Shown here piece by piece: positions 16,713-33,214 of a DNA stretch of 64,000 nucleotides. Below the pieces are notes generated by a model that saw only the letters and a list, made by a program, of their open reading frames with translations, was not told the DNA's origin and ran no database searches. Every line of letters starts with the position of its first letter. Within the stretch, counting starts at the first letter, position 1. Both the position numbers and the translations under genes were made by a program. The DNA lies in assembly GCA_037719805.1 (NCBI GenBank), contig JBBJLZ010000003.1; one strand, written 5' to 3'. The DNA comes from Pedobacter sp. Lineage in GTDB: Bacteria > Bacteroidota > Bacteroidia > Sphingobacteriales > Sphingobacteriaceae.

Positions 16713-18367
16713 GTGGCTGTTGCACAACTCCAATAAATGTAAAATTCTGCTTTTATAAAATTGCCAGAATGCGTAAATTAAAGGCATGCAAGGCAGAAGG
16801 ACTATACCGAAAAGCTGTTCACCAGCTTCCAGCTCTCGAGCCGGGTTCCCAAGGGAAACCTGTACCGCAAACTCCGCGAAACGCTTGATCTGAGCTTTTT
16901 ATATAAAGACACTAAAGAACTTTATGGCAAGACCGGAAACCCGTCAATTGACCCAGTGGTCTTTTTTAAGCTTCTGCTAACAGGCTATCTGGAGAACATT
17001 ACCTCTGACCGTAAACTTGTGGAGCATTGCTCCATGCGAATGGACGTGTTATATTTTCTTGGATTTGATATAGACGAAGACTTACCCTGGCATTCAACAA
17101 TTAGCAGGACAAGGCAGCTTTACCCGGCCTCACTGTTCGAAACATTATTCAACAAGGTATTTACCCTTTGTGTAAACAGTGGAATGGTTTCCGGTCATAC
17201 TCAGGCGGTAGATTCAGCGCCCGTTAAAGCAAACGCATCAATGGAAAGCGTGGAATTGAAAACACCAGTAATCTCTATTAATAACCACTTGAAAAAAGTA
17301 GAGGAAGAAAATCAGGAAGTTAAAAAGAATAATGATCCACCTAGCTCAGTGCAAATAACTGCGCCGGAGCACGAGTTAAGTCGGGTTAAAAAACGCCATC
17401 AAAACCTGCTTGATAATCCAGTTGGGGCACCCGGGGCATCACACGAAAAAGCACAGTTACTTAGCAACAAAACACATTACAATCCACATGATCCGGATGC
17501 CCGTATATCAGTAAAGCCTGGCAAAGCCAGAAAACTGAACTACCACTGCAGTATGGCAGTGGATACAGCAGAAGGTGTAATCTCGCATATTCAGGCAGAC
17601 TTCGCCGATGGCAGAGACAGCCAGTATCTCCCTAGCATTGGAATGCAGTTGCAAAACCGATTAAAGAAAAACGAACTATCAATGACGGACCTGATTGCAG
17701 ATGCAGGTTATTCTAACGGCTTCAATTACAAGTTTCTTGAACAAAGAAATGTTACCGGATGGATACCCGTATTTGGCATGTATAAACCTGAAATTGAAGG
17801 CTTTCCTTACAACAAGGAAAAGGATGAATACAGTTGTCCAATGAACAAGCCTTTACCATTCACGGGATTTCATACGAACAAGGATGGTACTGTATTGAAA
17901 AACTACTATGCAGCATCCAAGGATTGCAAAGTTTGCCCCATGAAATCTACCTGTGTACCAAATATACCATGCAGAAAGATCACCAGGACGGTTTATGACG
18001 AGCAGTATTTGAGGGCTTACAGCAGACAAAAAAGTGAACGAGGAAGACAGATGAAGAAACTCCGGCAAAGTACAGTGGAACCTGTCTTTGGAAGTTTGAC
18101 TCAGTACTATGGTTTAAGAAAAATAGGGGTACTTGGTAAAGCCGGTGCCCATAAAGTCATGCTGATGGCGGCAATTGCCTTCAATTTGAAGAAGTACCTG
18201 AAAAAAGGAAGAAGAAAGACTTCTAGCACCTTTCTAAAAGTCATTATAGACACCTTTCAGCGGTACTTATTAGCATTTTCAGTTAATCAGTATCAGTTGT
18301 CCTAAAGCCTGAATAAATGATCTGATAAATCGATGTTTAAGAAATGTAGCCATTGTGCAACAGCCAC
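16713..18367 (+). mobile_element. IS1182 family insertion sequence
   Basis: 15-bp terminal IR GTGGCTGTTGCACAA (16713-16727 / 18353-18367); 4-bp flanking duplication GGTG (16709-16712, 18368-18371). Confidence 0.88.
16786..18305 (+). pseudogene. IS1182 transposase with a frameshift at about codon 4-5
   Basis: The ATG 16786 frame (MQGRR...) stops early. The frame starting GAC at 16800 (DYTEKLFTSFQL...SIDPVVFFK) joins ORF 16956-18305, which has DDE-type motifs (AVDSAPVKANAS, ADAGY, RQSTVEPVFG). Confidence 0.8.
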
Positions 18368-18514: not shown

Positions 18515-19330
18515 TTAGAATTGCCCCCAGTCCAAATCTGCTTCTTCAACTTTCTTGCTCTTATTCTTTGCTTCCATTGCTTGAATAAACTTAACCATGG
18601 AGGAAATGTTACTGAATATCAGAACACTTTCATCATAATTTAGAATTTGGTTATCATGCGCATAACTTCTATTATTACGGATGTCATTAAAAGCATCCAT
18701 AATTTGGAAACTAAATTGCACTATCTTTTCTGCCATTGCAGATTCTAGAAAGCCCTTTTCTCTGATGGCTTTTATATATTTCCCAAACAGCGCGTTAACC
18801 GTTTCCCCCTTAGTTAAAGTAATTTTATGAAGGTCACAAAGTTCTTTCAGGAACTTAATTGTGTAGGTGTGTAATCTGTCGAGCGCAGCTTCTGGCTCGT
18901 TTTTTTCTATACTCTCTCGTATGAGTTTCGCTAGTGAATGGAAGTCTTTGTCTTCATTTGTAGCCTGGATGGCGTCAATATGTTCAAGAACATTTCCGCC
19001 ACTTATTAGACGGTCAAAGATTTTAGTATACAAGCTGTAATAATTAGAATCTCTTAATTTACCTTGTTGCTTATTGAAATCAACCAATTCTTCAAACAGA
19101 GCTTTGAGCAAAAGTCCAACAGTATAATCTGATTCAAGTTCAATAAACTTAAGTAAACGTTGCCCTTTTGATCCTGAGTTGTTCTCTGAATACTTCGGGT
19201 CATCAGCGTTCATTCCGGTTACATCGTATATGAAATCGTTAAAGCTAGGGTTTGAAAAGTTAAGAACATACCCGGCCTGGACAAGGTTGTCTTTAATAAT
19301 TTTCTTTTCCTGGAACGACAAGTTTGCCAT
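18515..19330 (-). CDS. Abortive infection family protein (AbiJ-like N-terminus, Abi_C/HEPN-like C-terminus)
   Basis: GYVLNFSN N-terminal motif, ALDRLHT, RNNRSYAH RxxxxxH-type motif; ATG at 19330. Confidence 0.75.
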   Translation of the reverse strand: MANLSFQEKKIIKDNLVQAGYVLNFSNPSFNDFIYDVTGMNADDPKYSENNSGSKGQRLLKFIELESDYTVGLLLKALFEELVDFNKQQGKLRDSNYYSLYTKIFDRLISGGNVLEHIDAIQATNEDKDFHSLAKLIRESIEKNEPEAALDRLHTYTIKFLKELCDLHKITLTKGETVNALFGKYIKAIREKGFLESAMAEKIVQFSFQIMDAFNDIRNNRSYAHDNQILNYDESVLIFSNISSMVKFIQAMEAKNKSKKVEEADLDWGQF

Positions 19331-19388
19331 GCGCCAATATACTAATAGTTGGATACCCAAGCAATTATTGGAATTAGCTTAGAGCAAC

Positions 19389-19618: not shown

Positions 19619-20407
19619 TTAGCTGCTAATATCTAGCAACAAATCAGCTGGCGTTTTAAAGCCTAGTGCTTTGTGTGGCCTATGATTATTGTAATCATAC
19701 ATCCATTCTTCAGCTTTTTCTCTTACTTCGTCCAGTGTTCTGAATATGTAAGCATTCAATAATTCCCTACGCATACTCCCGTTAAATCGTTCCACATATG
19801 CATTTTGAGTTGGTTTACCGGGTTGAATAAATATCAAGGTAATCTTTTTCTCATTACACCAATCCCCTAGCTTATCTGAAATGAATTCTGGACCGTTGTC
19901 GACTCTAATCATGCTTGGTAGACCTCTATACTGCTCTAACGCTTCCAATGCTCTTACAACCCTATGAGCTGGTAACGACAGATCAGGCTCGATGCACAAG
20001 ATTTCCCTGTTATAATCATCTACTATGTTCAGTACTCGAAATTTCCTTCCGTCCCATAAGCTGTCGCTCATAAAATCGATTGACCATACCTGGTTGATGG
20101 CTTCAGGAGTAGACAGAATTTGTTTTACTCTGGCGGGAAGTCGTTTTCTTGCTCGCCGTCTTATATTCAATTTCATAGCAGTATAAACCCTGTATACCCG
20201 TTTATGATTCCAAAGAAAGCCTTTGCGTCTCAATCTGTGGTAACATTTCCAAAACCCAATAACAGCATGCTTTTCAACGAGCACTTTCAGCTCATCAATA
20301 ATCTCATCATCATCTTTCTGCTTATGAATATAGAAACAACTACTTCGAGGAACGTTTACACATAAACACGCCTGACGATGGCTGATTTTCTTGACCATTT
20401 CTTCCAC
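19619..20407 (-). CDS. IS3 transposase OrfB (rve/DDE), reached by -1 frameshift
   Basis: WSIDF, VDNGPEF and NAYVERFNG motifs; A7G slippery sequence at 20437-20444. Confidence 0.92.
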
Positions 20408-20430
20408 CAGCCCGCGTTTTTCATCAGACG

Positions 20431-20697
20431 TTAACGCTTTTTTTCTACAGCTTCTTTAAAAGTTTCATGTACCAGACTCAGATTTGCATACATTTTTTTA
20501 AGCCGGGCGTTTTCATCTTCCAGCTCCTTTATCCTTTTCAGTTCGTTAACTTCCAGACCACCATAACGCTGACGCCACTTGTAGAAGGATGCAGTGCTTA
20601 CACCTAAATCACGGCATAGCTCATTAACATTCCTACCATTTTCATGTTCCTTGATTGCTTTGACAATCTGAGTCTCCGTAAATCTTGACTTTTTCAT
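20431..20697 (-). CDS. IS3 transposase OrfA (HTH)
   Basis: [17 protein letters not shown]...[10 protein letters not shown]...[12 protein letters not shown]. Confidence 0.92.
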
Positions 20698-21337
20698 ATT
20701 ACACATTTAAAGTTAAAAATTCTTTTTATCGCCCGCGCTACGCTTGGTCGAGAATTCTACTTTTAAATGGTCAGCTTTTAGGGAAGCTTACACGATTATC
20801 GCTGATGTTGAGTATGATTTTATTTTCGTTACTTCTATCTGCTTGTGCATAAATGGAAGAAGTCGCAAGTGCATCTATTATAGTTTTGCCATTTTTTTCT
20901 AATTTGTAACCTCCTGATAATGTTTCAAATGAATATATCATCTGTGTAGTTGCTGTAAAACTGATTTTTAATTCTAGAATGAGCTGTGTTTCATTATTGC
21001 TATATACCCATGTTCCGGCAAATTTCCTAAATGCCTTCTCCGAGATTACTGTTCCAGCCTTTAAATTTTCATTACCAGTAAAAACCTTACTTTCTACAGT
21101 ATCCTTAAGCTGTGCTGATGCGCTTAGGCCAAATAGTATACCAATGGAAAACATTAAGATGAATTTTTTCATATACACATTATTAGTGAGCTTTGTCTAC
21201 TCATAAGAAGTAAAGAAAGAGGGACCGTGATCTGTGATCATAGTCCCTCCTATCTAAATTAACGCTCTCTCGCTTACTATAGCGTTTAAAGCTTGATTAT
21301 TGTTATACAACGAAAGTTTATTTTAGTATCAAAGGAA

Positions 21338-25522: not shown

Positions 25523-27340
25523 ATGCTATACAATATAAACCGCAAAAAATATTTAAATCCCTATATGGAAAACATAGTTCATGCATTAAAAAATATGTTT
25601 TTCTTGATAATCATAATTTGTTTGGTTGGTGACTTATCGAATGCTCAACCAAACGTATCAAACAAAAGACCGCTATCACTTCCATTTAATTCCGTCCTAG
25701 TCAAAAAAAATATCAATGGTAAAATTTGCGATAACTGTCCGGTAGATTTTGCCTTGAATGCTGAACTTGATTTTAGTTATATACTTACTGGCGTAGAACA
25801 TGCATCCGGCCGTTTATCTAAAAACCAATTTCCAACCCGGTATGGAACAGATAATAACTACACAAATATCCATGTAATATCAAATGCGAAAGTTGGCATA
25901 ACTTTTCTTCCAAACTATCTTATAAAAGATGGAAAATACTTTCAACTTCTAAGGAATTTTAAGGGCATACCCTATAAACAACTTGAATTTGAGATTAGAC
26001 AAAATAATAGTGTTATCAGAAACTGGGAACGAATTCGCACTCTAAAAGAAATACAGGATTATACCATCTTTGGAATTGGGAGTGACGATCCGTCTACTAT
26101 TGCGCCTTGGGAACAAACCTTCCATGCCGGAAGTTTTGAGCTAAAGGTTGATGATTTGTTAAGCATCACTGTCAGAACGATAGAGACAAAGGAAATCATT
26201 AGGAAAATAGCAATCTTTCGTCCCGTTGATAAAGCTTCAGATTTTATCTACTATCAAATTCCTTTAACAAATGATGATTTAGGTCACAGTCTTCAAAATA
26301 TTTTGAACCTTAATATTGACACATTCAAAGCTTTCAAGGGAGACTCTTCTACCACATTTATAAAAGAATACAATTCACTCGGGATTTTAAGATTTACGAA
26401 CCTCCAGGAAAATGAGGTATTAGAATATTCATTTGGGAATAACCCCTTGGAATGGAAGTCTATAAAAACAAGAGATCCAAGAACTGGTATATTCCTGGTG
26501 CTTCCAAGTACTATGAAGGATGGAAAAAGACAAAGAATATTTCTTCGTTACCAGAGCCAACCCGAAACAATCCACTCAATAGAAGTTCAAGTAAATAAGC
26601 GCCCATTTAAGTTTCCATGGTTTCAGCTATCATTCATTTCCATTATAATCTTAGCTATTATCGTAATAGGATTTAACATTAGGGAACGGAGGAATAAGAA
26701 GAAATTAGCGGCCCTCACTAAGAAAAATATTGAAACCGAAACTTACCTTGCATTACTTAGTGGCCAATTAAATCCTCATTTTCTATTTAATACGCTTAAT
26801 GCTATTCAGGGTACTATCGGAAGTAATAATCCAGATATCTCTAATGCTTATATTGGTAGCGTAGCTAAATTTATGCGTGATGTGATGGACAGCGGTAGGA
26901 AAGAATTTATTTCCTTAAAAGAAGAACTTAAAATGGAAGAAGATTACCTTCAACTTGAGCAGCAACGATTAGCTTTTCAATATACCATAACTATTAGTCC
27001 TGATCTTGACCCTGACCTAATTGACATCCCACCCTTGCTTTTACAGCCAATATTGGAAAACAGTATCCGTCATGGATTTGGTAGTAACCATCATGCTTCA
27101 ATGATAAAAATTACCGTCAATAGGTTAGATAATGCATTAGTTATTAGGGCGATAGACAACGGTGATTCAGTTTGGTATTCAAGTGAAGTATCGGAGGGTC
27201 ACGGTCTTTCGCTTACCAGGAAACGCCTTTCAATTTATAACGAAAAGCTTCAAAATATGTTAATTTTTCTGGATGTCTCTTATGTAGAAATGGAAATGGG
27301 CACAGTTGCTACCTTTACTCTAAACAATTGGTTACTATGA
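25523..27340 (+). CDS. LytS/YehU-type sensor histidine kinase
   Basis: QLNPHFLFNTLNAI, PPLLLQPILENSIRHG, DNGD and GHGL motifs; large periplasmic domain plus TM. Confidence 0.9.
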   Translation: MLYNINRKKYLNPYMENIVHALKNMFFLIIIICLVGDLSNAQPNVSNKRPLSLPFNSVLVKKNINGKICDNCPVDFALNAELDFSYILTGVEHASGRLSKNQFPTRYGTDNNYTNIHVISNAKVGITFLPNYLIKDGKYFQLLRNFKGIPYKQLEFEIRQNNSVIRNWERIRTLKEIQDYTIFGIGSDDPSTIAPWEQTFHAGSFELKVDDLLSITVRTIETKEIIRKIAIFRPVDKASDFIYYQIPLTNDDLGHSLQNILNLNIDTFKAFKGDSSTTFIKEYNSLGILRFTNLQENEVLEYSFGNNPLEWKSIKTRDPRTGIFLVLPSTMKDGKRQRIFLRYQSQPETIHSIEVQVNKRPFKFPWFQLSFISIIILAIIVIGFNIRERRNKKKLAALTKKNIETETYLALLSGQLNPHFLFNTLNAIQGTIGSNNPDISNAYIGSVAKFMRDVMDSGRKEFISLKEELKMEEDYLQLEQQRLAFQYTITISPDLDPDLIDIPPLLLQPILENSIRHGFGSNHHASMIKITVNRLDNALVIRAIDNGDSVWYSSEVSEGHGLSLTRKRLSIYNEKLQNMLIFLDVSYVEMEMGTVATFTLNNWLL

Positions 27341-28083
27341 AAAATCTCACTTGCTTTATTGTGGACGATGAACAAGTCGCAGTTGAAGCTTTGTCTACAA
27401 TAATCCGAAGATATTGCCCGGACCTTACAATTTCTGGCACTGCAAATTCGGTCAAGGATGGATTGGAATTACTAAATAGCCAGATAGTTGATATTTTATT
27501 TCTGGATATTAAGATGAAACAAGAAACAGGTTTTGATCTTTTGAAGCAACTCCAAATAGATAACTTTCACATCATTTTCGTAACTGCGCATGATCAGTAT
27601 GGTATACAAGCCATAAAGTTTTCCGCTACAGACTATCTACTAAAGCCAATAATTCCGGAGGAACTAATTGCAGCTGTATATAAAATAAACCATAAAAGAA
27701 AGACGTCCGTTGGTGAGATTGATATGCTTTTACAATCTTACGATCATCAAAGAAATAATTTACAAAAACGAATTGCCTTAGCTGACCAGAATGAGATCCG
27801 CTATGTACTTATCGAAAACATTGTATGTTGTAATGCAGATAATAGCTACACCAGCTTCTATATTTCTAATGAAACTGCGCCAATTATAGTATCCAAATCA
27901 ATTTCTGACTATGAACAGATCCTATCCATTTATGGATTTCTACGAACTCATCAATCATGGCTGATCAATAAGAATCGGATAGAGTCATTTAAAAAAGCAG
28001 ACGGAGGATATCTCGTTATGGATAATAAGATGAGTGTGCCAGTGAGCCGCCAAAGAAGACATTTGTTAAATAATAATGCATAA
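27337..28083 (+). CDS. LytR/AlgR family response regulator (REC + LytTR)
   Basis: VDDE, FLDIKM, YLLKP and FLRTHQSWLIN motifs; ATGA overlap with the kinase stop. Confidence 0.92.
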   Translation: MKNLTCFIVDDEQVAVEALSTIIRRYCPDLTISGTANSVKDGLELLNSQIVDILFLDIKMKQETGFDLLKQLQIDNFHIIFVTAHDQYGIQAIKFSATDYLLKPIIPEELIAAVYKINHKRKTSVGEIDMLLQSYDHQRNNLQKRIALADQNEIRYVLIENIVCCNADNSYTSFYISNETAPIIVSKSISDYEQILSIYGFLRTHQSWLINKNRIESFKKADGGYLVMDNKMSVPVSRQRRHLLNNNA

Positions 28084-28090
28084 AAATTGG

Positions 28091-28128
28091 CGCAGCAAAA
28101 AGGAAATAAATGTCTCAGAAAACGAAGG
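28091..28128 (+). repeat. Right half of the element (degenerate right arm plus box); last copy seen
   Basis: CGCAGCAAAAAGGAAA-taaa-TGTCTCAGAAAACGAAGG. Confidence 0.7.
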
Positions 28129-28186
28129 TCATTCTAAGAATTATATCGAAGTTGTGGACACATAAAAATTTCAAGCGACGTGTCGC

Positions 28187-28864
28187 TTATTTCACCAAAT
28201 ACTTGACCAGCTCCTCTACACCTAAAGAAGCGGTTTTGTTAATCTTAATAGAGTTAAAGTAGTCTATACTAGGGTCGGGGTCTATGATAAATTTTTGTGC
28301 ATATAAAGGTACTTCATCAACTAAACTTGCCGCAGGCATTACCATTAAACTAGTTCCAACGACAGCAAATATATCTGCGCTGCTACACAGTGATATTGCA
28401 TAGTTCATATTTGACACCGATTCGCCGAACCAAACAACGTTAGGTCGAAGACTCATTCCATGAATGCACTTGTCATTAGAAGTAATTTCAGAACCAATAA
28501 TATTGTATGTTAATGAGGGGTCGACATCAGATTGTGCTTTAGTAATTTCACCATGAAGGTGCAATACATTTTTGGAACCGGCTCGTTCATGGAGATCATC
28601 TACATTCTGTGTTATTATATGCACATTGAAAGCGCGTTCCAGGTGAACTAAAGCTAAATGTGCCAGGTTAGGCACTGCCTTCAATACCTTACCTCTTTGT
28701 AAGTTGTAAAACTCCTGAACTAGCCCTGGATTTCTTTTCCAGCCATCAAGGGTAGCTACATCTAACAAGTTATAGCCCTCCCATAAACTATCGACACCTC
28801 TAAACGTTTCTAAGCCGCTTTCTACACTAATACCAGAGCCAGTCAGTATTACGATATTTTTCAT
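28187..28864 (-). CDS. cobB: SIR2/CobB family NAD-dependent deacylase
   Basis: TGSGISVESG.TFRG, TQNVDDLHERAG, HLHG, RPNVVWFGE and VGTS motifs. Confidence 0.85.
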   Translation of the reverse strand: MKNIVILTGSGISVESGLETFRGVDSLWEGYNLLDVATLDGWKRNPGLVQEFYNLQRGKVLKAVPNLAHLALVHLERAFNVHIITQNVDDLHERAGSKNVLHLHGEITKAQSDVDPSLTYNIIGSEITSNDKCIHGMSLRPNVVWFGESVSNMNYAISLCSSADIFAVVGTSLMVMPAASLVDEVPLYAQKFIIDPDPSIDYFNSIKINKTASLGVEELVKYLVK

Positions 28865-28951
28865 AATTGATGTTTAATGATAACGTTATTAATTGAGAAT
28901 GGATTATTGGTTTGTATCAACAATAAATATTTCGTAGCCGAATCTTTGCAC

Positions 28952-29875
28952 TCATTTAGTTGCAGTCTTTTTTGAGTTTGCTATCTCGATCTTCTTCTTC
29001 AAGTGTTGGAAGATAAGCCTGTAATCGTCAGAATGTCTTTGACTTACCCTTACTACAATCCCTGCTGGATGTCTCAAGGTGAGTAAAAAGATTCGTTTAT
29101 TTTCTGTAATGTCATCAATGTTGTTTTTCTCAATGATCTCTCTTCTATTTATTTCCAGGTATTTCCCAACTTCTAAATGAGACAAGGAGTCACAAATAGG
29201 GTGTGGCCATTCAAATTGATCTCCACTTTTCGTGTATGCGATGCGAGTTCCTTGGAAACTCTTGATAAAGCATATTTCTCGAAAGTTCTTAATTTTAGAA
29301 GTAAGTGGTAACTTCACATATTTAACTATCGTTTTAACTTCGTCAGCGTTTTTGTCGATACGCAGTTCAGAAGCGAAGTCAGGCTGTGGTTTAATGATTA
29401 AAAAAAAAGCATCTTTAGCCACATACAATAAGTTAAGCACAAATATAAGTAGTGCAATTGGCATGAAATAATGAGTGAACCAGGCAGTGTCGGAAATTAC
29501 GATGCGATACCTACCGTAGTATATTGTAGCGGATAGGAATGCTATTACTATTGGAGCTAAAATGCACTGCGAAAATTGCTTTGTTAGTCTTTCCTTATAA
29601 GACTTTTCCCAAGGGTATGCTTTATTTAAAGTCTTATTTTGAATGTGAACATATTGTAAAACGATGAATGAAGCTAAAGAAGTAGCAATCATTGCGGGCA
29701 TAAACCCTTTCAATTGAACCAAAGCTGTAAGCTCAATAGTCTCTGCATGCATTACCAAGGCAAAAGCCACCGGTATTGAGAATAGAAGTCTCAACACGTT
29801 GTTTAATATTAAGAAGGTCCCGCTTAAGGTATTGAGTGCGTTGTATTTGGTCATTGGGATTGTAAGGTTAGTCAT
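28952..29875 (-). CDS. Membrane protein (~4 TM) with C-terminal LytTR-like DNA-binding domain
   Basis: Hydrophobic N-terminal half; C-terminal YLEINRREII and VRVSQR pattern of LytTR domains. Confidence 0.65.
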   Translation of the reverse strand: MTNLTIPMTKYNALNTLSGTFLILNNVLRLLFSIPVAFALVMHAETIELTALVQLKGFMPAMIATSLASFIVLQYVHIQNKTLNKAYPWEKSYKERLTKQFSQCILAPIVIAFLSATIYYGRYRIVISDTAWFTHYFMPIALLIFVLNLLYVAKDAFFLIIKPQPDFASELRIDKNADEVKTIVKYVKLPLTSKIKNFREICFIKSFQGTRIAYTKSGDQFEWPHPICDSLSHLEVGKYLEINRREIIEKNNIDDITENKRIFLLTLRHPAGIVVRVSQRHSDDYRLIFQHLKKKIEIANSKKTATK

Positions 29876-29911
29876 TATTTATGGTAATTCTTTTTAATTG
29901 ACGATTAATGG

Positions 29912-29942
29912 TTTTATCGTTCATGAATTTAATTTTATCGTT
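29912..29942. promoter_or_regulatory. Direct repeat TTTTATCGTT x2 at 21-bp period (LytTR-type site)
   Basis: 29912-29921 and 29933-29942, in the divergent promoter region. Confidence 0.5.
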
Positions 29943-30024
29943 GGTAATTTTGAGGCATGCATTTTTAAAAAGATTAGGCGGTTCACATGTACTTTCGATT
30001 ATTGAAATTCCTTAAACGATACGT

Positions 30025-30255
30025 ATGAAAGATGTTCTATTACGAATTGAGTTGCTATTGACTCGGATACTTGAATCTTCTGAAGTGAACCCAAGCTCCC
30101 TGGATGTTTCTAAGCAAGATGTTTGGTTAGATGGAGTAGAAGTCAAAGCTCTACTTCATATAGGCGATATGACTCTATTTAGAAGAAGAACTGATGGGAC
30201 ATTCAAATGCAAAAAGATTGGGAAGAAGTGGTTTTATGCAAAGTCTACTTTATAA
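30025..30255 (+). CDS. Small excisionase/MerR-like helix-turn-helix protein
   Basis: WLDGVEVKALLHIGDMTLFRRR..G...KKIGKKWFY, an HTH_17-like pattern. Confidence 0.75.
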   Translation: MKDVLLRIELLLTRILESSEVNPSSLDVSKQDVWLDGVEVKALLHIGDMTLFRRRTDGTFKCKKIGKKWFYAKSTL

Positions 30256-30280
30256 CCTGTAAAAAGCATTCTTTTAATAG

Positions 30281-30316
30281 ATCAAAAACTATCAAATCCT
30301 ATCAAAATATATCATA
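30281..30316 (+). repeat. ATCAAA phased repeats (10-bp period x4)
   Basis: ATCAAA at 30281, 30291 and 30301; ATCATA at 30311. Confidence 0.7.
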
Positions 30317-30443
30317 AATAACTGATCAACAAATAGTTAAGTAATTGTCATTACGTTTGATTCAGCAATTGGAAACACCTTACCGGCCGGATGGTTAACT
30401 AGTGCTTTAAACAACAAAATAATTTAACTTAAAAAAGAAGATC

Positions 30444-31082
30444 ATGGGATTTTTAATGGGTGGACCTTACTACGATTTAATCGGGAGAACAGGTAACAAC
30501 GTTGGACGCAGAAGAAAAGGGAAAAATGTTTTCTCAATGCGTCCGTCAAAATCAACAAAACAGCCGACAATTTTACAATTGAATCAAAGGCTAAAATTCG
30601 GATTAGTAACAAGGTGGTTGAGCAATGCACTCAACGTCATCCAAATTGGTTATCAAGCTTACCAGACTACTGGTTCATCTATGAACTCCGCTGTAAAGCA
30701 AGTATTGGACGATGCGATCACAGGAGTCTCACCCAACTTTGCGCTCGACTACTCACGAGTGCAGCTAAGCAAGGGACCATTACTTGGAGCCCGCAACTGG
30801 GTAATGTCAGCCATAGCAAGTGCTGAAGTCGAGCTTACCTGGGATGCTAACGTTGGTTCAGGAAAGCATAATGTTACTGACAAGTTGATCATTTTTGCTT
30901 TTTGCCCAGTGGTTGGTGAGTTCTTAGAACTAATTGCTCCAGTTACCAGAGGCGCATTAGCGTACACATTAAGCGTTCCAGCTTCGATGAGTACTGAGCT
31001 ACTTCATGTTTGGATTTCATTCATGAATCATGAAGAGGATGTCGTTTCAAGAAGCGAATTTAGATCGATAACTCTGCTCTAA
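30444..31082 (+). CDS. DUF6266-like protein
   Basis: Gly/basic N-terminus (GRTGNNVGRRRKGK), Q..QRLKF helix, LDYSRVQLSKG and C-terminal beta-rich part; family recalled, not searched. Confidence 0.65.
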   Translation: MGFLMGGPYYDLIGRTGNNVGRRRKGKNVFSMRPSKSTKQPTILQLNQRLKFGLVTRWLSNALNVIQIGYQAYQTTGSSMNSAVKQVLDDAITGVSPNFALDYSRVQLSKGPLLGARNWVMSAIASAEVELTWDANVGSGKHNVTDKLIIFAFCPVVGEFLELIAPVTRGALAYTLSVPASMSTELLHVWISFMNHEEDVVSRSEFRSITLL

Positions 31083-31088
31083 CAATTT

Positions 31089-31145
31089 AGATTGGCCTTT
31101 GAGACAAAAGAAAAGAACGTTTCGGATGGTCTAAAAGGCCAATCT
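31089..31145. other. 17-bp inverted repeat hairpin between DUF6266 and the membrane-protein gene
   Basis: AGATTGGCCTTTGAGAC 31089-31105 and GTCTAAAAGGCCAATCT 31129-31145 (16/17 complementary). Confidence 0.7.
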
Positions 31146-31186
31146 TTCTTTAACAAAAAAGTAAACAAATTTTAAACTGAAAAAAA

Positions 31187-31558
31187 ATGAAAACAATAGC
31201 TAATGGAATACGAGAGAAGCAAATAATTGAACTTTTGAAGCCAGTGTTGGTACTCATTATTTTGATATTAGCATGGCCCTTAGTACAAATGTTACTGTTC
31301 ACTAGTGATCAGACAACTGGTTATGTGGACCCCAGCATATTAATATTGATTGTCTTAAGCTTAATATGCTTTATAGGAATGGTGGGATTAAGTGGTTGGC
31401 TCTTTATAAAGGCACTCAAATCAGTAGGATTACCAATTATTGGAAATATGGTTTCACAATTTAATACTATGGCAGTATGGCAACAAATAGGCTTCTATTA
31501 TGCTTCTTATGCGTTACTTCTTTTAGCGGGAGTTGGGTGTTTGGTAGCAGTTTTATAA
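31187..31558 (+). CDS. Small 3-TM membrane protein (holin-like by context)
   Basis: Three hydrophobic segments; overlaps the CHAP gene. Confidence 0.6.
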   Translation: MKTIANGIREKQIIELLKPVLVLIILILAWPLVQMLLFTSDQTTGYVDPSILILIVLSLICFIGMVGLSGWLFIKALKSVGLPIIGNMVSQFNTMAVWQQIGFYYASYALLLLAGVGCLVAVL

Positions 31559-32004
31559 GAAAAAACGAAAATGGTTATGGAAGAATTATCAAGTACGCCC
31601 GAGAAGAAATCGGGGTCAGGGAAACAAATAATGCAAACAGTGGTATACGTGTTGAAGCTTATCTTGCTTATGTGGGTTTCGAAAAAGGAGCGCCCTGGTG
31701 CGCGGCGTTCGTAAGTTGGGTTTATAATAAGGCTGGCTACAAACTTCCCAAATCAGCATGGAGCCCCGCGCTATTCCCGCATTCAAAACGTTCGAAAGAA
31801 CCAGAGCCTGGAATGATCTTTGGAATTTATTTTCCTAATCTTAAAAGGGTCGGACACTGTGGAATCGTAGAGTCTATCCGAAATGACTGGCTGACAACGA
31901 TAGAAGGCAACACGAACGCTTTAGGGTCCAGAGAGGGAGATGGCGTATATAGAAAGCTGAGGAAGAAGCAGACAATACGTTATTATTCAAATTGGATCCA
32001 TTAA
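31477..32004 (+). CDS. CHAP-domain peptidoglycan hydrolase-like protein
   Basis: PWCAAFVSW catalytic Cys, GHCGIV His and IEGNT motif; hydrophobic N-terminus. Confidence 0.8.
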   Translation: MATNRLLLCFLCVTSFSGSWVFGSSFIRKNENGYGRIIKYAREEIGVRETNNANSGIRVEAYLAYVGFEKGAPWCAAFVSWVYNKAGYKLPKSAWSPALFPHSKRSKEPEPGMIFGIYFPNLKRVGHCGIVESIRNDWLTTIEGNTNALGSREGDGVYRKLRKKQTIRYYSNWIH

Positions 32005-32065
32005 ATGTTTGAAAGAGATTAACAATCTTGGATCCAAATCAATTAAACTTAGTGTCTCTGTTTAC

Positions 32066-32100
32066 AAGCCTGCTCACCATTATTGGGGCAGGCTTATTTT
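32066..32100 (+). terminator. Rho-independent terminator after the CHAP gene
   Basis: AAGCCTGCTC...GGGCAGGCTT stem followed by ATTTT. Confidence 0.6.
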
Positions 32101-32218
32101 GTTTGAGCTAACATATGATTCGTTTTTTAGCTTGAGAATTTTATTAGAGTTTGGCATAAAATATAGTCTCTGATTATCGGTACTTTTGCATTCAACAGTA
32201 CTTGAATATAGAAAAATA

Positions 32219-33214
32219 ATGAACGTCGCAATAAATGGTTTTGGTCGGATCGGTCGTATATTCTTACGCACAGCCCTCGAACGAAACATAAATGTTGTCG
32301 CCATAAACGACCTCGGTGATCCCGCTACTCTTGCTCACCTCTTTAAATATGATACGGTGCACCGTGGTTTTAAAGGTCAGGTTTCCTTCGCAAATGATCA
32401 CCTGCTCATCAATGGTAAGTCCATCCGGGTATTCAGACAGCCCAATCCCGCAGCGCTTCCCTGGAAAGAATTAGATATTGATCTGGTCATCGAATCTACC
32501 GGTAAGTACATCACACGGTCCGGCGCTGAACTACACCTCCTCGCCGGTGCAAAACAGGTCATCATCTCTGCACCTTCTCCGGATAAGGATGTGCCCATCG
32601 TGGTGCTCGGTGTCAATGATGCAGATATTGATTTGAAATCAGCCATCCTTTCCAACGCTTCCTGTACCACCAATAATGTTGCACCAATGGTAAAAATTCT
32701 CGACGACAATTGGGGTGTGCTTGAAGGATACATCACCACCATACACTCCATGACTGGTGATCAGAACCTGCACGATGCCCCACATAAAGATCTTCGCAGA
32801 GCCAGAGCCGCTTCTGCTTCCATTATTCCAACCAGTACTGGCGCGGCGAAAGCGATCACCCGCATATTCCCGCAACTTGACAATAAACTGGGTGGGGCCG
32901 GGATCAGGGTTCCGGTCCTCAATGGCTCCCTCACAGATTTCACCTGCCTCCTCAAAACGCAAACTTCCATAGAAGCCATCAACGCAGCTTTTAAAAAGGC
33001 GGCCGACAATGAAATGAGCACCATCCTCGAATACACGGAAGATCCAATCGTCTCCGTAGATATTCTGGATAACCCGCATTCTTGTATATTTGATGCACAG
33101 CTAACTTCCATCGTAGGTGATATGGTCAAAGTAGTAGGCTGGTACGATAATGAATTCGGCTACTCCGCAAGATTGGCCGACCTTGTTCAAAAGATAGATC
33201 AACAAAATGGTTAA
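32219..33214 (+). CDS. gap: Type I glyceraldehyde-3-phosphate dehydrogenase
   Basis: INGFGRIGR, ASCTTN and WYDNE motifs; ATG at 32219 after a TACTTTTG -7 motif at 32181. Confidence 0.95.
   Translation: MNVAINGFGRIGRIFLRTALERNINVVAINDLGDPATLAHLFKYDTVHRGFKGQVSFANDHLLINGKSIRVFRQPNPAALPWKELDIDLVIESTGKYITRSGAELHLLAGAKQVIISAPSPDKDVPIVVLGVNDADIDLKSAILSNASCTTNNVAPMVKILDDNWGVLEGYITTIHSMTGDQNLHDAPHKDLRRARAASASIIPTSTGAAKAITRIFPQLDNKLGGAGIRVPVLNGSLTDFTCLLKTQTSIEAINAAFKKAADNEMSTILEYTEDPIVSVDILDNPHSCIFDAQLTSIVGDMVKVVGWYDNEFGYSARLADLVQKIDQQNG

What the first reader, a model, noticed from the sequence alone, without database searches (positions are those of the whole stretch)
28952..32100. Possible undescribed regulatory-lysis module: membrane LytTR, divergent excisionase-like HTH, DUF6266, holin-like protein and CHAP hydrolase
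Seen: a 4-TM protein with a LytTR-like C-terminus faces a 76-aa HTH gene, with 21-bp-period repeats between them. After the HTH gene come 10-bp-phased repeats, then an operon of a DUF6266-like protein (basic Gly-rich N-arm, helix, beta-rich C-terminus), a 3-TM protein and an overlapping CHAP hydrolase, closed by a terminator. No integrase, capsid, terminase or replication gene is visible. Knowledge: LytTR proteins bind ~21-bp-period direct repeats, streptococcal LytTR regulatory systems control bacteriocin and lysis genes, and holin/endolysin pairs overlap like this. Inference: a self-contained cascade controlling cell-wall lysis or release of a DUF6266 particle or filament, rather than a plain prophage remnant.
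Basis: partly seen in the sequence, partly recalled or inferred. Interest (0 to 1): 0.65.

Follow-up and report, generated by a model that had tools for sequence, protein, structure and literature searches.

The report
Regulated lysis cassette coupled to DUF6266
A soil Pedobacter-like bacterium keeps, next to its core cell-division genes, a small conserved five-gene unit in which two regulators appear to control an unknown protein (DUF6266) followed by phage-type cell-wall-lysis genes; it is probably a domesticated lysis cassette that releases that protein, a moderately interesting and so far undescribed variant of a known strategy.

Summary

- **Regulators:** the 307-aa protein has four TM helices and a C-terminal LytTR domain, detectable only through its family profile. 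The 76-aa protein is HTH_17-like, below the Pfam threshold.
- **Conservation:** the five genes recur together in four other loci, in two unrelated genomic contexts. All are under purifying selection (dN/dS 0.06-0.25).
- **No mobile element:** no prophage, ICE or plasmid genes surround them. DUF6266 is absent from phage, IMG/VR and plasmid collections.
- **Footprints:** the 21-bp-spaced repeat, the helically phased repeats, two Bacteroidetes -7 boxes and a leader palindrome are conserved.
- **Wider family:** the stable core is DUF6266, leaky terminator, orphan 3-TM protein, CHAP hydrolase and, in 5 of 11 cassettes, a unimolecular-spanin-like protein. The 3-TM protein never occurs without DUF6266, but about half of DUF6266 loci lack lysis genes.
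- **Fold:** DUF6266 has a novel N-terminal part and an FN3-like C-terminal sandwich, not a capsid or filament fold.

Best reading: a domesticated, T10SS-like lysis cassette that releases DUF6266, switched by a membrane-LytTR to HTH cascade. It is a new variant of a known kind, and function is inferred, not shown.

The parts
28952..29875 (-). Membrane-anchored LytTR-type regulator: four predicted TM helices (about residues 21-41, 56-74, 100-120, 133-153) and a C-terminal LytTR domain (about 195-290). The conserved start is Met8 (ATG at 29854).
   Evidence: ORF. No direct Pfam hit. 322 relatives found by exhaustive HMMER. 54 of 60 relatives carry PF04397. The family profile hits PDB LytTR domains 3d6w at 9e-12 and AgrA 3bs1 at 1.2e-5. 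Orthologues are in L018, L019, L021 (43-50% identity) and L001 (24%). The AF2 model is poor (pLDDT 41) but shows four long helices.
29913..29942 (.). Two direct repeats TTTATCGTT, start-to-start spacing 21 bp, in the divergent intergenic region. Candidate LytTR binding site.
   Evidence: 1 match against 0.02 expected. The repeats are conserved in L018, L019 and L021 while the spacer varies. L001 has TGTTCCAT twice, also 21 bp apart. The geometry matches LytTR sites: repeats separated by 11-13 bp (PMC6193735).
29990..29997 (+). Candidate Bacteroidetes-type -7 promoter box (TACTTTCG, consensus TAnnTTTG) for the HTH gene.
   Evidence: TAnnTT(T/C)G is conserved in all five aligned loci. The consensus itself is taken from my own knowledge of Bacteroidetes promoters.
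30025..30255 (+). 76-aa HTH_17-like (excisionase/AlpA-type) DNA-binding protein. Candidate activator of the DUF6266 promoter.
   Evidence: HTH_17 E 0.0087, below the Pfam cut-off. All five orthologues hit HTH_17, best 2.2e-5. The C-terminal 45 residues are strongly conserved. dN/dS 0.09-0.13.
30280..30314 (+). Four (G/T)ATCA units at 10-bp phase, about 40-80 bp upstream of the -7 box of the DUF6266 promoter. Candidate binding array for the HTH protein.
   Evidence: 1 match against 0.00 expected. Conserved in L018, L019 and L021. L001 has six GCCA units at 10-12 bp phase in the same place.
30352..30359 (+). Conserved -7 promoter box TACGTTTG of the DUF6266 operon.
   Evidence: TAnnTTTG is present at the same place in the window, L001, L016, L018, L019, L013 and L014.
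30379..30393 (+). Conserved leader palindrome CTTACCGGCCGGATG. Either an operator or a short 5'-UTR hairpin; its role is unexplained.
   Evidence: One copy per locus, only at this position, in the window, L001, L016/17, L018, L019/20 and L021. A symmetrical double change in L007 keeps the palindrome. It is weak as an RNA hairpin. No Rfam match.
30444..31082 (+). DUF6266 protein (subfamily A), 212 aa, with no signal peptide. It has an invariant Gly/Arg-rich N-terminal beta-hairpin arm, a helical segment and an FN3-like C-terminal sandwich. Proposed cargo.
   Evidence: Pfam 5.8e-36. Alignment. AF2 pLDDT 84.6 and pTM 0.75. Foldseek finds only FN3 domains, best E 3.5e-5. No sequence match in the PDB. 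dN/dS 0.10-0.16.
31089..31153 (+). Strong stem-loop (17-nt arms) followed by a T-run, directly after the DUF6266 stop codon. Candidate leaky intrinsic terminator that sets the ratio of DUF6266 to lysis proteins.
   Evidence: dG -25.2, z -5.3, 0 of 200 shuffles fold as well. An equivalent hairpin with a different stem sequence is present in all 11 loci that carry the cassette.
31187..31558 (+). Orphan 123-aa protein with three TM segments, in the holin position. It has a conserved periplasmic GYVDPSI motif and no charged C-terminal tail.
   Evidence: ORF. No Pfam, PHROG, NCBIfam or PADLOC hit. No phage tblastn hit. Only 16 relatives in 5.8 billion proteins. In all 11 contexts examined it lies between DUF6266 and CHAP. 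dN/dS 0.06-0.25.
31477..32004 (+). CHAP-domain peptidoglycan hydrolase (endolysin type) that overlaps the 3-TM gene. The start is either ATG 31477 (which gives a signal/SAR-like N-terminus) or GTG 31537.
   Evidence: CHAP 9.4e-9, above cut-off. PHROG endolysin 4.6e-18. 92 phage hits, mostly annotated endolysins at 35-38% identity. Catalytic Cys and His are conserved. dN/dS 0.10-0.15.
32066..32105 (+). Intrinsic-terminator-like hairpin (AAGCCTGC...GCAGGCTT) followed by ATTTTGTTTG. It closes the operon before gap.
   Evidence: Sequence. Centroid structure.

Best explanation
The block is a chromosomally fixed, phage-derived lysis cassette that has been domesticated and coupled to one cargo gene, DUF6266. 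It is placed under its own two-tier switch.

Proposed mechanism (inferred):
1. The membrane-embedded LytTR protein senses an envelope or extracellular cue. It binds the 21-bp-spaced direct repeats between itself and the HTH gene, and so controls the HTH promoter and probably its own.
2. The small HTH_17-like protein binds the helically phased repeat array upstream of the DUF6266 promoter and activates it.
3. Transcription yields abundant DUF6266 mRNA, which mostly stops at the strong hairpin after the gene.
4. A fraction reads through into the 3-TM protein and the CHAP hydrolase. Once the membrane protein permeabilises or depolarises the inner membrane, the hydrolase cuts peptidoglycan.
5. The cell, probably a subpopulation, lyses or blebs and releases the signal-less, cytoplasmically folded DUF6266.

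This is the logic of type 10 secretion systems (T10SS) and colicin operons.

Shown here: the gene content, domain assignments, co-occurrence, purifying selection, conserved regulatory DNA and the absence of a mobile element. Inferred: who binds which site, that the 3-TM protein acts as a holin, that lysis occurs, and that DUF6266 is the released product. The function of DUF6266 outside the cell remains unknown.
For: **The module recurs and is maintained.**
- The five-gene module recurs in L018, L019/20, L021 and, with different flanks, in L001.
- All five genes have dN/dS of 0.06-0.25, like the flanking sir2 and gap genes.

**The downstream genes are lysis-type.**
- The CHAP protein is endolysin-type with intact catalytic residues.
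- In L001, L007, L025, L026 and L027 the CHAP gene is followed by a protein with an N-terminal lipobox and a C-terminal TM anchor. That is the defining architecture of a unimolecular spanin (PMC10954549).
- The ancestral cassette therefore has the order holin position, endolysin, spanin.

**The coupling is asymmetric.**
- The 3-TM family (16 members) was always found directly after DUF6266, in 11 of 11 contexts.
- DUF6266 also exists without it. This is the pattern of a dedicated release device and a more widespread cargo.

**DUF6266 looks like an abundant, signal-less product.**
- A structurally conserved terminator hairpin separates DUF6266 from the lysis genes in all 11 cassettes.
- DUF6266 has no signal peptide.

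**The regulatory sites are footprinted.**
- The LytTR-type repeat geometry and the phased repeats are conserved, and they co-vary with the regulators in L001 (PMC6193735).

**There is no mobile element.**
- No prophage or ICE genes lie within +/-10 kb in any locus examined.
- DUF6266 is absent from phage, IMG/VR and plasmid collections.

**Precedent.**
- Holin/endolysin/spanin clusters outside phages that release transcriptionally coupled, signal-less cargo by lysis of a subpopulation are established (PMC10847048).
Against: - There is no experimental or transcript evidence; no RNA runs exist for this organism.
- The 3-TM protein has no homology to any known holin. It lacks the charged C-terminal tail typical of holins, and its predicted topology (N-in, C-out) differs from class I holins.
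- The window's clade lacks the spanin-like gene, so complete lysis of a diderm cell is not assured.
- About half of DUF6266 loci have no adjacent lysis genes, and many instead carry a tandem second DUF6266 paralogue. Release by an adjacent cassette therefore cannot be a general requirement.
- Two cassettes (L003, L015) are decayed.
- Nothing shows that DUF6266 is extracellular.
- The assignment of each repeat array to a particular regulator is by position only. A second LytTR regulator (REC-LytTR at 27328-28083) lies 1 kb away in the window, although it is not conserved in the syntenic relatives.
Confidence: 0.45

Rival explanations
1. DUF6266 is not cargo but a component or regulator of the lysis device itself. 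It could be a cytoplasmic partner that gates the 3-TM protein (antiholin-like or trigger), or a non-catalytic cell-wall-binding subunit of the single-domain CHAP enzyme, as in the two-gene PlyC endolysin. The module would then be a programmed autolysis, eDNA or vesicle-release switch comparable to Cid/Lrg or to explosive cell lysis.
For: - The 3-TM protein never occurs without DUF6266.
- The CHAP protein has no binding domain of its own.
- DUF6266 has an FN3-like domain, a fold common in carbohydrate-binding and phage structural proteins.
- The N-terminal arm is nearly invariant, which suggests a conserved macromolecular partner.
- LytTR regulators control holin-like autolysis genes in Firmicutes (own knowledge: LytSR-lrgAB).
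Against: - DUF6266 is intact and conserved in many loci without any 3-TM or CHAP gene, often as tandem A/B paralogues.
- It has no signal peptide, so it could reach the wall only after membrane permeabilisation.
- The conserved terminator implies that much more DUF6266 than lysis protein is made. That fits an abundant product better than a stoichiometric regulator.
Confidence: 0.2
2. The block is an inert prophage remnant: a leftover lysis module plus one late gene, with no present function for the host.
For: - The CHAP protein is closest to phage endolysins.
- The gene order is that of a phage lysis cassette.
- The block has lower GC than the adjacent core genes and sits at the edge of a variable region with IS elements and defence genes.
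- Decayed copies exist in L003 and L015.
Against: - All five genes are intact and under purifying selection across orthologues with saturated synonymous divergence.
- The position is conserved across species, and the promoters, operators and terminator are conserved too.
- No other phage gene is present in any of about 25 loci.
- DUF6266 and the 3-TM protein have no relatives in 50,697 phage genomes or in IMG/VR.
Confidence: 0.08
3. The module is an anti-phage abortive-infection or altruistic-suicide system. The regulators or DUF6266 sense infection and trigger premature lysis through the 3-TM and CHAP proteins.
For: - In relatives the block adjoins a defence island with type I RM, GmrSD and SocA/Panacea.
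- The window has an Abi_C gene nearby, and L022 has AbiEi/AbiEii nearby.
- Lysis genes as effectors would fit an abortive-infection logic.
Against: - None of the proteins matches a PADLOC model.
- The adjacent Sir2 is a short CobB-type deacetylase conserved in synteny, not a defence Sir2 fusion.
- The defence island lies beyond Sir2 and is not conserved with the block.
- Many DUF6266 loci sit next to SusC/SusD and metabolic genes rather than defence genes.
Confidence: 0.1
4. DUF6266 is the subunit of a particle, capsid-like shell or filament that is assembled in the cytoplasm and released by lysis.
For: - It is a small, probably abundant protein with a basic, Gly-rich, invariant N-terminal arm, as in some capsid proteins.
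- It is encoded upstream of lysis genes behind a leaky terminator.
- Tandem A/B paralogues could form hetero-oligomers.
Against: - The confident AF2 model shows no jelly-roll, HK97, pilin or tube fold. Foldseek against the PDB and against viral structures returns only FN3/Ig domains covering the C-terminal half.
- No nucleic-acid packaging, scaffold or assembly genes are present in any locus.
Confidence: 0.07

Closest known systems
Type 10 secretion systems: domesticated holin/endolysin/spanin cassettes (Serratia ChiWXYZ, Yersinia entomophaga YenLC; PMC10847048)
   Same: - A lysis cassette outside any prophage and next to essential genes and transcription factors.
- A peptidoglycan hydrolase preceded by a small membrane protein and, in relatives, followed by a spanin-type protein.
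- A signal-less protein encoded in the same transcription unit.
- Dedicated regulators.
   Different: - The host phylum is Bacteroidota.
- The membrane protein belongs to no known holin family and lacks a charged C-terminal tail.
- The hydrolase is a CHAP peptidase, not the ChiX-type endopeptidase or a muramidase.
- The spanin, where present, is unimolecular, and it is missing in the window's clade.
- The cargo is a 212-aa protein of unknown function, not a chitinase or toxin.
- The regulators are a membrane-LytTR and an HTH_17 protein rather than ChiR or RoeA.
- Nothing has been tested experimentally.
Colicin operons (colicin gene, terminator, lysis gene)
   Same: A cytoplasmic, signal-less product is encoded first. 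A terminator hairpin before the release gene means the release protein is made only by read-through (my own knowledge of ColE-type operons). The hairpin after DUF6266 is conserved in all 11 cassettes.
   Different: - The release genes here are a membrane protein plus a CHAP hydrolase, not a small lipoprotein.
- There is no immunity gene, no SOS box and no plasmid.
- DUF6266 has no recognisable toxin, receptor-binding or translocation domains.
LytTR regulatory systems (HdrRM, BrsRM) and the Bacteroides LRS-like operons with TM-LytTR regulators (PMC6193735)
   Same: - A LytTR DNA-binding domain, with direct repeats at about a 21-bp period beside the promoter.
- The Bacteroides variant likewise has several TM segments fused in front of the LytTR domain.
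- The streptococcal systems control bacteriocin, competence and cell-death genes.
   Different: - There is no separate membrane inhibitor gene (no DUF2154 or NfeD partner).
- The regulator is divergent from, not in an operon with, its neighbour.
- An extra HTH_17 tier lies between it and the output genes.
- The window protein itself is too diverged to hit the Pfam LytTR model.
Pneumococcal competence fratricide cascade (ComE, a LytTR regulator, then ComX, then the CHAP murein hydrolase CbpD)
   Same: A two-tier cascade from a LytTR regulator, through a second small transcription factor, to a CHAP-domain murein hydrolase (own knowledge).
   Different: CbpD is secreted and kills non-competent siblings. 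The second tier there is a sigma factor. No holin-position gene or DUF6266 is involved.
Phage lysis cassettes with a unimolecular spanin (phage T1 type; PMC10954549)
   Same: The gene order is small membrane protein, endolysin, then a protein with an N-terminal lipoprotein signal and a C-terminal TM anchor. This is seen in L001, L007 and L025-L027.
   Different: There is no phage around it. No sequence similarity to phage holins or spanins was found. The window itself lacks the spanin-like gene.

Membership tests
DUF6266 (Pfam PF19781) | Match to the family HMM above the gathering score. | tested here: met
   124.3 bits against 23.4, covering residues 15-204. 40 homologues all carry PF19781.
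LytTR-domain DNA-binding proteins (PF04397) | A recognisable LytTR domain. | tested here: met
   Not detected in the window protein alone. However, 54 of 60 full-length relatives match PF04397. The family profile aligns its C-terminal 100 positions to the solved LytTR domains 3d6w (9e-12) and AgrA (1.2e-5). The window sequence keeps the FxxINRxxI and VSQR motifs.
LytTR-domain DNA-binding proteins (PF04397) | Cognate direct repeats of 9-11 bp separated by 11-13 bp next to a promoter. | tested here: met
   TTTATCGTT occurs twice with a 12-bp spacer. It is conserved in 4 loci, and L001 has the same spacing with a different sequence. The rule comes from PMC6193735. Binding itself was not tested.
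LytTR regulatory system (LRS) in the sense of PMC6193735 | A soluble LytTR regulator plus a separate transmembrane inhibitor protein in one operon. | tested here: not met
   The TM segments and the LytTR domain are fused in one protein, and no inhibitor gene is adjacent. It resembles only the 'LRS-like' Bacteroides variant mentioned in that paper.
HTH_17 / excisionase-AlpA family (PF12728) | Match above the Pfam gathering score. | tested here: inconclusive
   16.8 bits against a cut-off of 27 for the window protein. All five orthologues hit only this family, best E 2.2e-5. No PDB sequence match.
Excisionase (functional class) | A partner integrase/recombinase and att sites. | tested here: not met
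   No tyrosine or serine recombinase lies near the block in the window or in any relative. No tRNA gene is present in the window.
Holin | A small membrane protein with at least one TM segment, encoded next to an endolysin. | tested here: met
   123 aa, three hydrophobic segments, immediately upstream of and overlapping the CHAP gene in 11 loci.
Holin | A hydrophilic, highly charged C-terminal tail. | tested here: not met
   The protein ends inside TM3 (...GVGCLVAVL) in all orthologues.
Holin | Homology to a described holin family. | tested here: not met
   No Pfam, PHROG or NCBIfam hit. No tblastn hit in 50,697 phage genomes.
Holin | Forms lethal membrane lesions that release or activate the endolysin. 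| not testable with these tools
   This needs expression and lysis assays.
CHAP peptidoglycan hydrolase / endolysin | A CHAP domain above cut-off with catalytic Cys and His. | tested here: met
   36.1 bits against 26. Cys in PWCAAFVSW and His in GHCG are invariant in 11 orthologues. PHROG endolysin 4.6e-18. Phage endolysins at 35-38% identity.
TIGR02594 family | Score above the NCBIfam cut-off. | tested here: not met
   47.1 bits against 70.55.
Type 10 secretion system | A holin-type protein plus a peptidoglycan hydrolase encoded outside a prophage. | tested here: met
   No phage genes lie within +/-10 kb in the loci examined. The caveat is that the holin identity is positional only.
Type 10 secretion system | A spanin component. 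| tested here: not met
   Absent in the window, L018 and L019. A u-spanin-like gene is present in L001, L007 and L025-L027.
Type 10 secretion system | Cargo release depends on the cassette. | not testable with these tools
   This needs knock-outs and secretome analysis.
Prophage, ICE or plasmid-borne element | Integrase, terminase, capsid, portal, tail or conjugation genes nearby; relatives in phage or plasmid collections. | tested here: not met
   None were found in about 25 loci. DUF6266 is absent from phages, IMG/VR and plasmids.
Capsid, filament or tube protein | A fold match to a known capsid, pilin or tube protein. | tested here: not met
   Foldseek against the PDB and BFVD returns only FN3/Ig domains (TM-score to the query 0.3-0.4, C-terminal half only).
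Known anti-phage defence systems (PADLOC) | Match to a PADLOC model. | tested here: not met
   No hits for any of the five proteins, for Sir2 or for C1.

The most novel reading that the evidence does not exclude
DUF6266 with its exclusively coupled 3-TM protein defines the first lysis-based (T10SS-like) protein-release system of Bacteroidota. A membrane-embedded LytTR one-component sensor commits a subpopulation to altruistic lysis. The lysis releases a new class of extracellular protein, possibly a self-associating A/B matrix, adhesin or antagonistic factor, whose invariant N-terminal arm is a new functional motif. The 3-TM protein would be a new holin class without a cytoplasmic tail.
Probability: 0.3. 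Interest if true: 0.7.

Novelty: new variant of a known kind. Interest (0 to 1): 0.5.

Why it matters
- **Function for an unknown family.** DUF6266 has no literature at all. This locus gives the family its first testable context: a compact, regulator-equipped operon that couples it to lysis-type genes.
- **Reach of lysis-based release.** If the reading is right, lysis-based 'secretion' extends beyond Proteobacteria and Clostridia into soil Bacteroidota.
- **New protein classes.** It would add an unrelated membrane protein to the holin repertoire.
- **A tractable sensor.** It would provide a simple example of a membrane-anchored LytTR one-component sensor with an identifiable operator and output. 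That class has been noted but not characterised (PMC6193735).
- **Direct experimental handles.** The conserved promoter, operator, leader palindrome and leaky terminator can each be tested directly.

Tried and rejected
- **AF2 of the membrane-LytTR protein** with a two-sequence alignment gave pLDDT 41 and was not used for fold search.
- **PDB sequence searches** found nothing for the DUF6266 profile, the HTH profile or the C1 profile. The single PDB hit for CHAP was a spurious antibody match.
- **PADLOC** found nothing for any protein.
- **Rfam** found nothing in 28000-33000 at E <= 1.
- **Sequencing runs:** only soil-metagenome DNA runs hold the region, with no RNA, so expression could not be examined.
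- **Collections:** DUF6266 gave no hits in phages, IMG/VR or plasmids. The 3-TM protein gave no hit in phages.
- **PHROGs** gave nothing significant for C1, the spanin-like proteins, the 3-TM orthologues or the B-type paralogue.
- **The look-up of P0009** was not on record.
- **The leader palindrome as a stable RNA structure** was rejected (dG -8.1, z +0.56).
- **Sir2 as a defence Sir2** was considered and rejected. It is a 225-aa CobB-type protein, conserved in synteny, with no PADLOC hit.
- **The nearby REC-LytTR response regulator** as the binder of the 21-bp repeats was considered less likely, because that gene pair is absent from the syntenic relatives that keep the repeats.
- **The metagenome-contig scan** was not used, because about 25 contexts were judged sufficient.

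Full report
**1. What is there**

- The 212-aa protein is a clear member of Pfam DUF6266 (5.8e-36).
- The 175-aa protein has a CHAP domain above the Pfam cut-off and matches PHROG endolysin families (4.6e-18). It has 92 phage relatives, most of them annotated endolysins. Its catalytic Cys and His are invariant in 11 orthologues.
- The 76-aa protein matches HTH_17 only below threshold, but all five orthologues hit that family and no other.
- The 307-aa protein gives no Pfam hit of its own. An exhaustive HMMER search found 322 relatives of the same length and architecture. 54 of 60 sampled relatives carry PF04397 LytTR. The family profile aligns its C-terminal 100 positions to the solved LytTR domains 3d6w (9e-12) and AgrA.
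- Four N-terminal TM helices are evident from the sequence and from the otherwise poor AF2 model.
- The 123-aa protein has three hydrophobic segments and no detectable relatives in Pfam, PHROGs, NCBIfam, PADLOC or phage genomes.

**2. The DNA features are real and not chance**

- TTTATCGTT occurs twice, 21 bp apart, at 29913-29942. This is one match against 0.02 expected.
- Four (G/T)ATCA units at 10-bp phase lie at 30280-30314, against 0.00 expected.
- The hairpin after the DUF6266 stop codon (31089-31145, then a T-run) folds at -25.2 kcal/mol with z = -5.3.
- A GC-rich 8-bp stem plus ATTTTGTTT at 32066-32105 closes the unit.

**3. Context**

The window shows a GC step at about 32,000.
- To the right lie gap, an acetyltransferase, pgk, mraZ and the dcw cluster.
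- To the left lie a Sir2 (CobB-type) gene, a LytS-type kinase with a REC-LytTR regulator, thioredoxin-like lipoproteins, IS elements and an Abi_C gene.
- There is no integrase of the phage or ICE type, and no capsid, terminase, portal or conjugation genes. There is no tRNA gene.

**4. Comparative evidence**

DUF6266 homologues are confined to Pedobacter and other Sphingobacteriaceae genomes and to metagenomes.

*The five-gene module.*
- In the closest relatives (59-70% identity: L018, L019/L020, L021) the order is identical: Sir2, membrane-LytTR(-), HTH(+), DUF6266, 3-TM, CHAP, gap, pgk, dcw. The region beyond Sir2 is a variable defence island.
- L001 (56% identity) has the same five genes, plus a sixth, between entirely different neighbours.
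- The five genes therefore form a unit that has persisted through speciation and occurs in two genomic contexts.
- Where synonymous divergence is not saturated, dN/dS is 0.06-0.25 for all five genes, like the flanking sir2 (0.11-0.17) and gap (0.05).

*The wider family.*
- Among 20 informative loci retrieved through DUF6266, 8 have an intact 3-TM plus CHAP pair downstream and 2 have a decayed pair (L003, L015).
- Most of the remaining loci carry a tandem second DUF6266 of a distinct B subfamily instead.
- Upstream, the usual partner is an orphan ~125-aa protein (C1), often preceded by a Crp-like regulator, rather than the LytTR and HTH pair.
- Conversely, the 3-TM family has only 16 members in 5.8 billion proteins. 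In all 11 contexts seen it lies between DUF6266 and the CHAP gene.
- In L001, L007, L025, L026 and L027 the CHAP gene is followed by a 119-134-aa protein with an N-terminal lipobox (LVAC|S, LLGC|R, LLSC|S) and a C-terminal TM anchor. That is the architecture that defines unimolecular spanins (PMC10954549).
- The fuller cassette is thus membrane protein, endolysin, u-spanin, which is the canonical order of lysis genes in phages of diderm hosts. Yet no locus has any other phage gene.
- DUF6266 is absent from 50,697 phage genomes, from IMG/VR and from 72,556 plasmids.

**5. Regulatory footprints**

Evidence comes from an alignment of the two intergenic regions and inspection of the upstream regions.
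- (a) The 21-bp-spaced direct repeat is conserved in the four syntenic loci while its spacer varies. L001, whose LytTR protein is only 24% identical, has a different repeat (TGTTCCAT) at exactly the same spacing.
- (b) A TAnnTT(T/C)G box about 30 nt before the HTH start codon is conserved.
- (c) The phased TATCA array is conserved in the syntenic loci. In L001 it is replaced by six GCCA units at 10-12-bp phase.
- (d) A TAnnTTTG box (TACGTTTG, 30352-30359) is conserved in front of DUF6266, even in distant loci.
- (e) The palindrome CTTRCCGGCCGGRWG lies about 20 nt further on. It occurs once per locus, and only there, from the window to P. heparinus. L007 has a symmetrical double substitution. 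It is not a stable RNA hairpin and remains unexplained.
- (f) A strong stem-loop with a T-run sits immediately after DUF6266 in all 11 cassettes, with unrelated stem sequences.

The geometry in (a) is the one reported for LytTR regulators (repeats separated by 11-13 bp). TM-fused LytTR regulators have been noted in Bacteroides (PMC6193735).

**6. DUF6266 itself**

- The AF2 model is confident (pLDDT 84.6, pTM 0.75). It shows a beta-hairpin arm (residues 14-32) carrying the nearly invariant GGPYYxLxGRTGNNVGR...GKNVFSMRP motif, three helices (43-90) and a seven-stranded sandwich (117-210).
- Foldseek against the PDB and against viral models returns only FN3/Ig domains for the sandwich, and nothing for the N-terminal half.
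- There is no jelly-roll, HK97, pilin or tube fold, so the particle or filament idea has no structural support.
- The protein has no signal peptide. There is no literature on the family.

**7. Most likely mechanism**

The pieces fit a domesticated lysis cassette that releases a co-transcribed cytoplasmic product:
- an endolysin-type hydrolase in phage gene order;
- a spanin-type gene in relatives;
- a dedicated membrane protein that is exclusive to DUF6266;
- a leaky terminator that would make DUF6266 abundant and the lysis proteins scarce;
- a signal-less first gene;
- private regulators with footprinted sites;
- purifying selection;
- no mobile element.

This is the logic of T10SS, meaning holin/endolysin/spanin clusters outside phages that release coupled cargo by lysis of a subpopulation (PMC10847048), and of colicin operons.

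Upstream, a membrane-LytTR one-component sensor probably acts on the divergent promoter region. The HTH_17-like protein probably activates the operon through the phased array.

All functional steps are inferred. I put this reading at 0.45.

Its main weaknesses are these:
- The 3-TM protein is not demonstrably a holin: it has no charged tail and no homology to known holins.
- The window's clade lacks the spanin.
- Half of DUF6266 loci lack lysis genes.

**8. Rivals**

- DUF6266 is part of the lysis machinery, as a gate or a wall-binding subunit (0.2).
- The module is an abortive-infection suicide module (0.1).
- The block is an inert prophage remnant (0.08). This is contradicted by selection, by the conserved regulatory DNA and by absence from phage databases.
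- DUF6266 is a particle or filament subunit (0.07). This is contradicted by the fold.

**9. Verdict**

- It is a new variant of a known kind, of moderate interest (0.5). Its main value is as the first functional handle on DUF6266 and as a candidate lysis-based release system in Bacteroidota.

Noticed in passing
window 1-32000 versus 32000-64000: There is a sharp GC step, about 0.33-0.39 on the left and 0.42-0.46 on the right. The left half is a variable region holding an IS3-type element (19619-20706), a DDE transposase (16956-18305) and an Abi_C protein (18515-19360). The right half is core genes (gap, pgk, mraZ, dcw cluster).
   Followed up: partly
window 25523-28083: A classical LytS-type histidine kinase (PF06580) and a REC-LytTR response regulator lie 1 kb from the block. 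This is a second LytTR protein that could in principle use the same repeats. The pair is absent from the syntenic relatives that keep the repeats.
   Followed up: partly
window 30379-30393; also L001 9927-9941, L016 9935-9949, L018 9936-9950, L019 9938-9952: The palindrome CTTRCCGGCCGGRWG in the DUF6266 leader is invariant, occurs once per locus and is conserved down to 45% protein identity. L007 keeps the symmetry through a double change. It is weak as an RNA hairpin, so it may be an operator. It remains unexplained.
   Followed up: partly
L005, L009, L010, L012, L013, L014, L023, L024, L026 (directly after or near the first DUF6266 gene): DUF6266 has two subfamilies: A (GRTGNNVGR) and B (G[RK][VL]GN[LT]V.Y). 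They often lie in tandem, which suggests a heteromeric pair. Only 13 columns are invariant across both subfamilies (for example G14, G17, N18, V20, Q45, W133, R169).
   Followed up: partly
L002 9577-9945, L003 9539-9910, L007 5844-6242, L010 9511-9885, L012 1841-2215 and 3936-4325, and others: An orphan ~125-aa protein family (C1) lies directly upstream of DUF6266 in at least 10 loci, often preceded by a Crp-like regulator. It has no significant Pfam, PHROG or PDB match. These loci also share a different leader: GCCTTTnnnAAGGCATC, a variable hairpin, then GTAAAGCA.
   Followed up: partly
L001 11747-12151, L007 8250-8645, L025 8883-9260, L026 8974-9333, L027 8839-9210: A fourth cassette gene has an N-terminal lipobox and a C-terminal TM anchor, which is the unimolecular-spanin architecture. 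It has no sequence similarity to known spanins and is lost in the window's clade.
   Followed up: yes
window 31477-31558: The CHAP reading frame is open through the last TM segment of the 3-TM gene (+2 frame). From ATG 31477 it would add a signal- or SAR-like N-terminus (MATNRLLLCFLCVTSFSGSWVFG). The extension is open in 8 of 11 loci but absent in L025 and L027, so it is either dual coding or a frame artefact.
   Followed up: partly
L001 10640-10929, L009 10646-11177, L026 7575-8000: Long, repeat-rich, highly structured insertions (MITE- or REP-like, for example GCAATGACG repeats) lie between DUF6266 and the 3-TM gene in some loci.
   Followed up: no
L003 10832-11307 and L015 9926-11406: These are decayed copies of the cassette: split DUF6266, and truncated 3-TM and CHAP genes. 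The module is lost in some lineages.
   Followed up: partly
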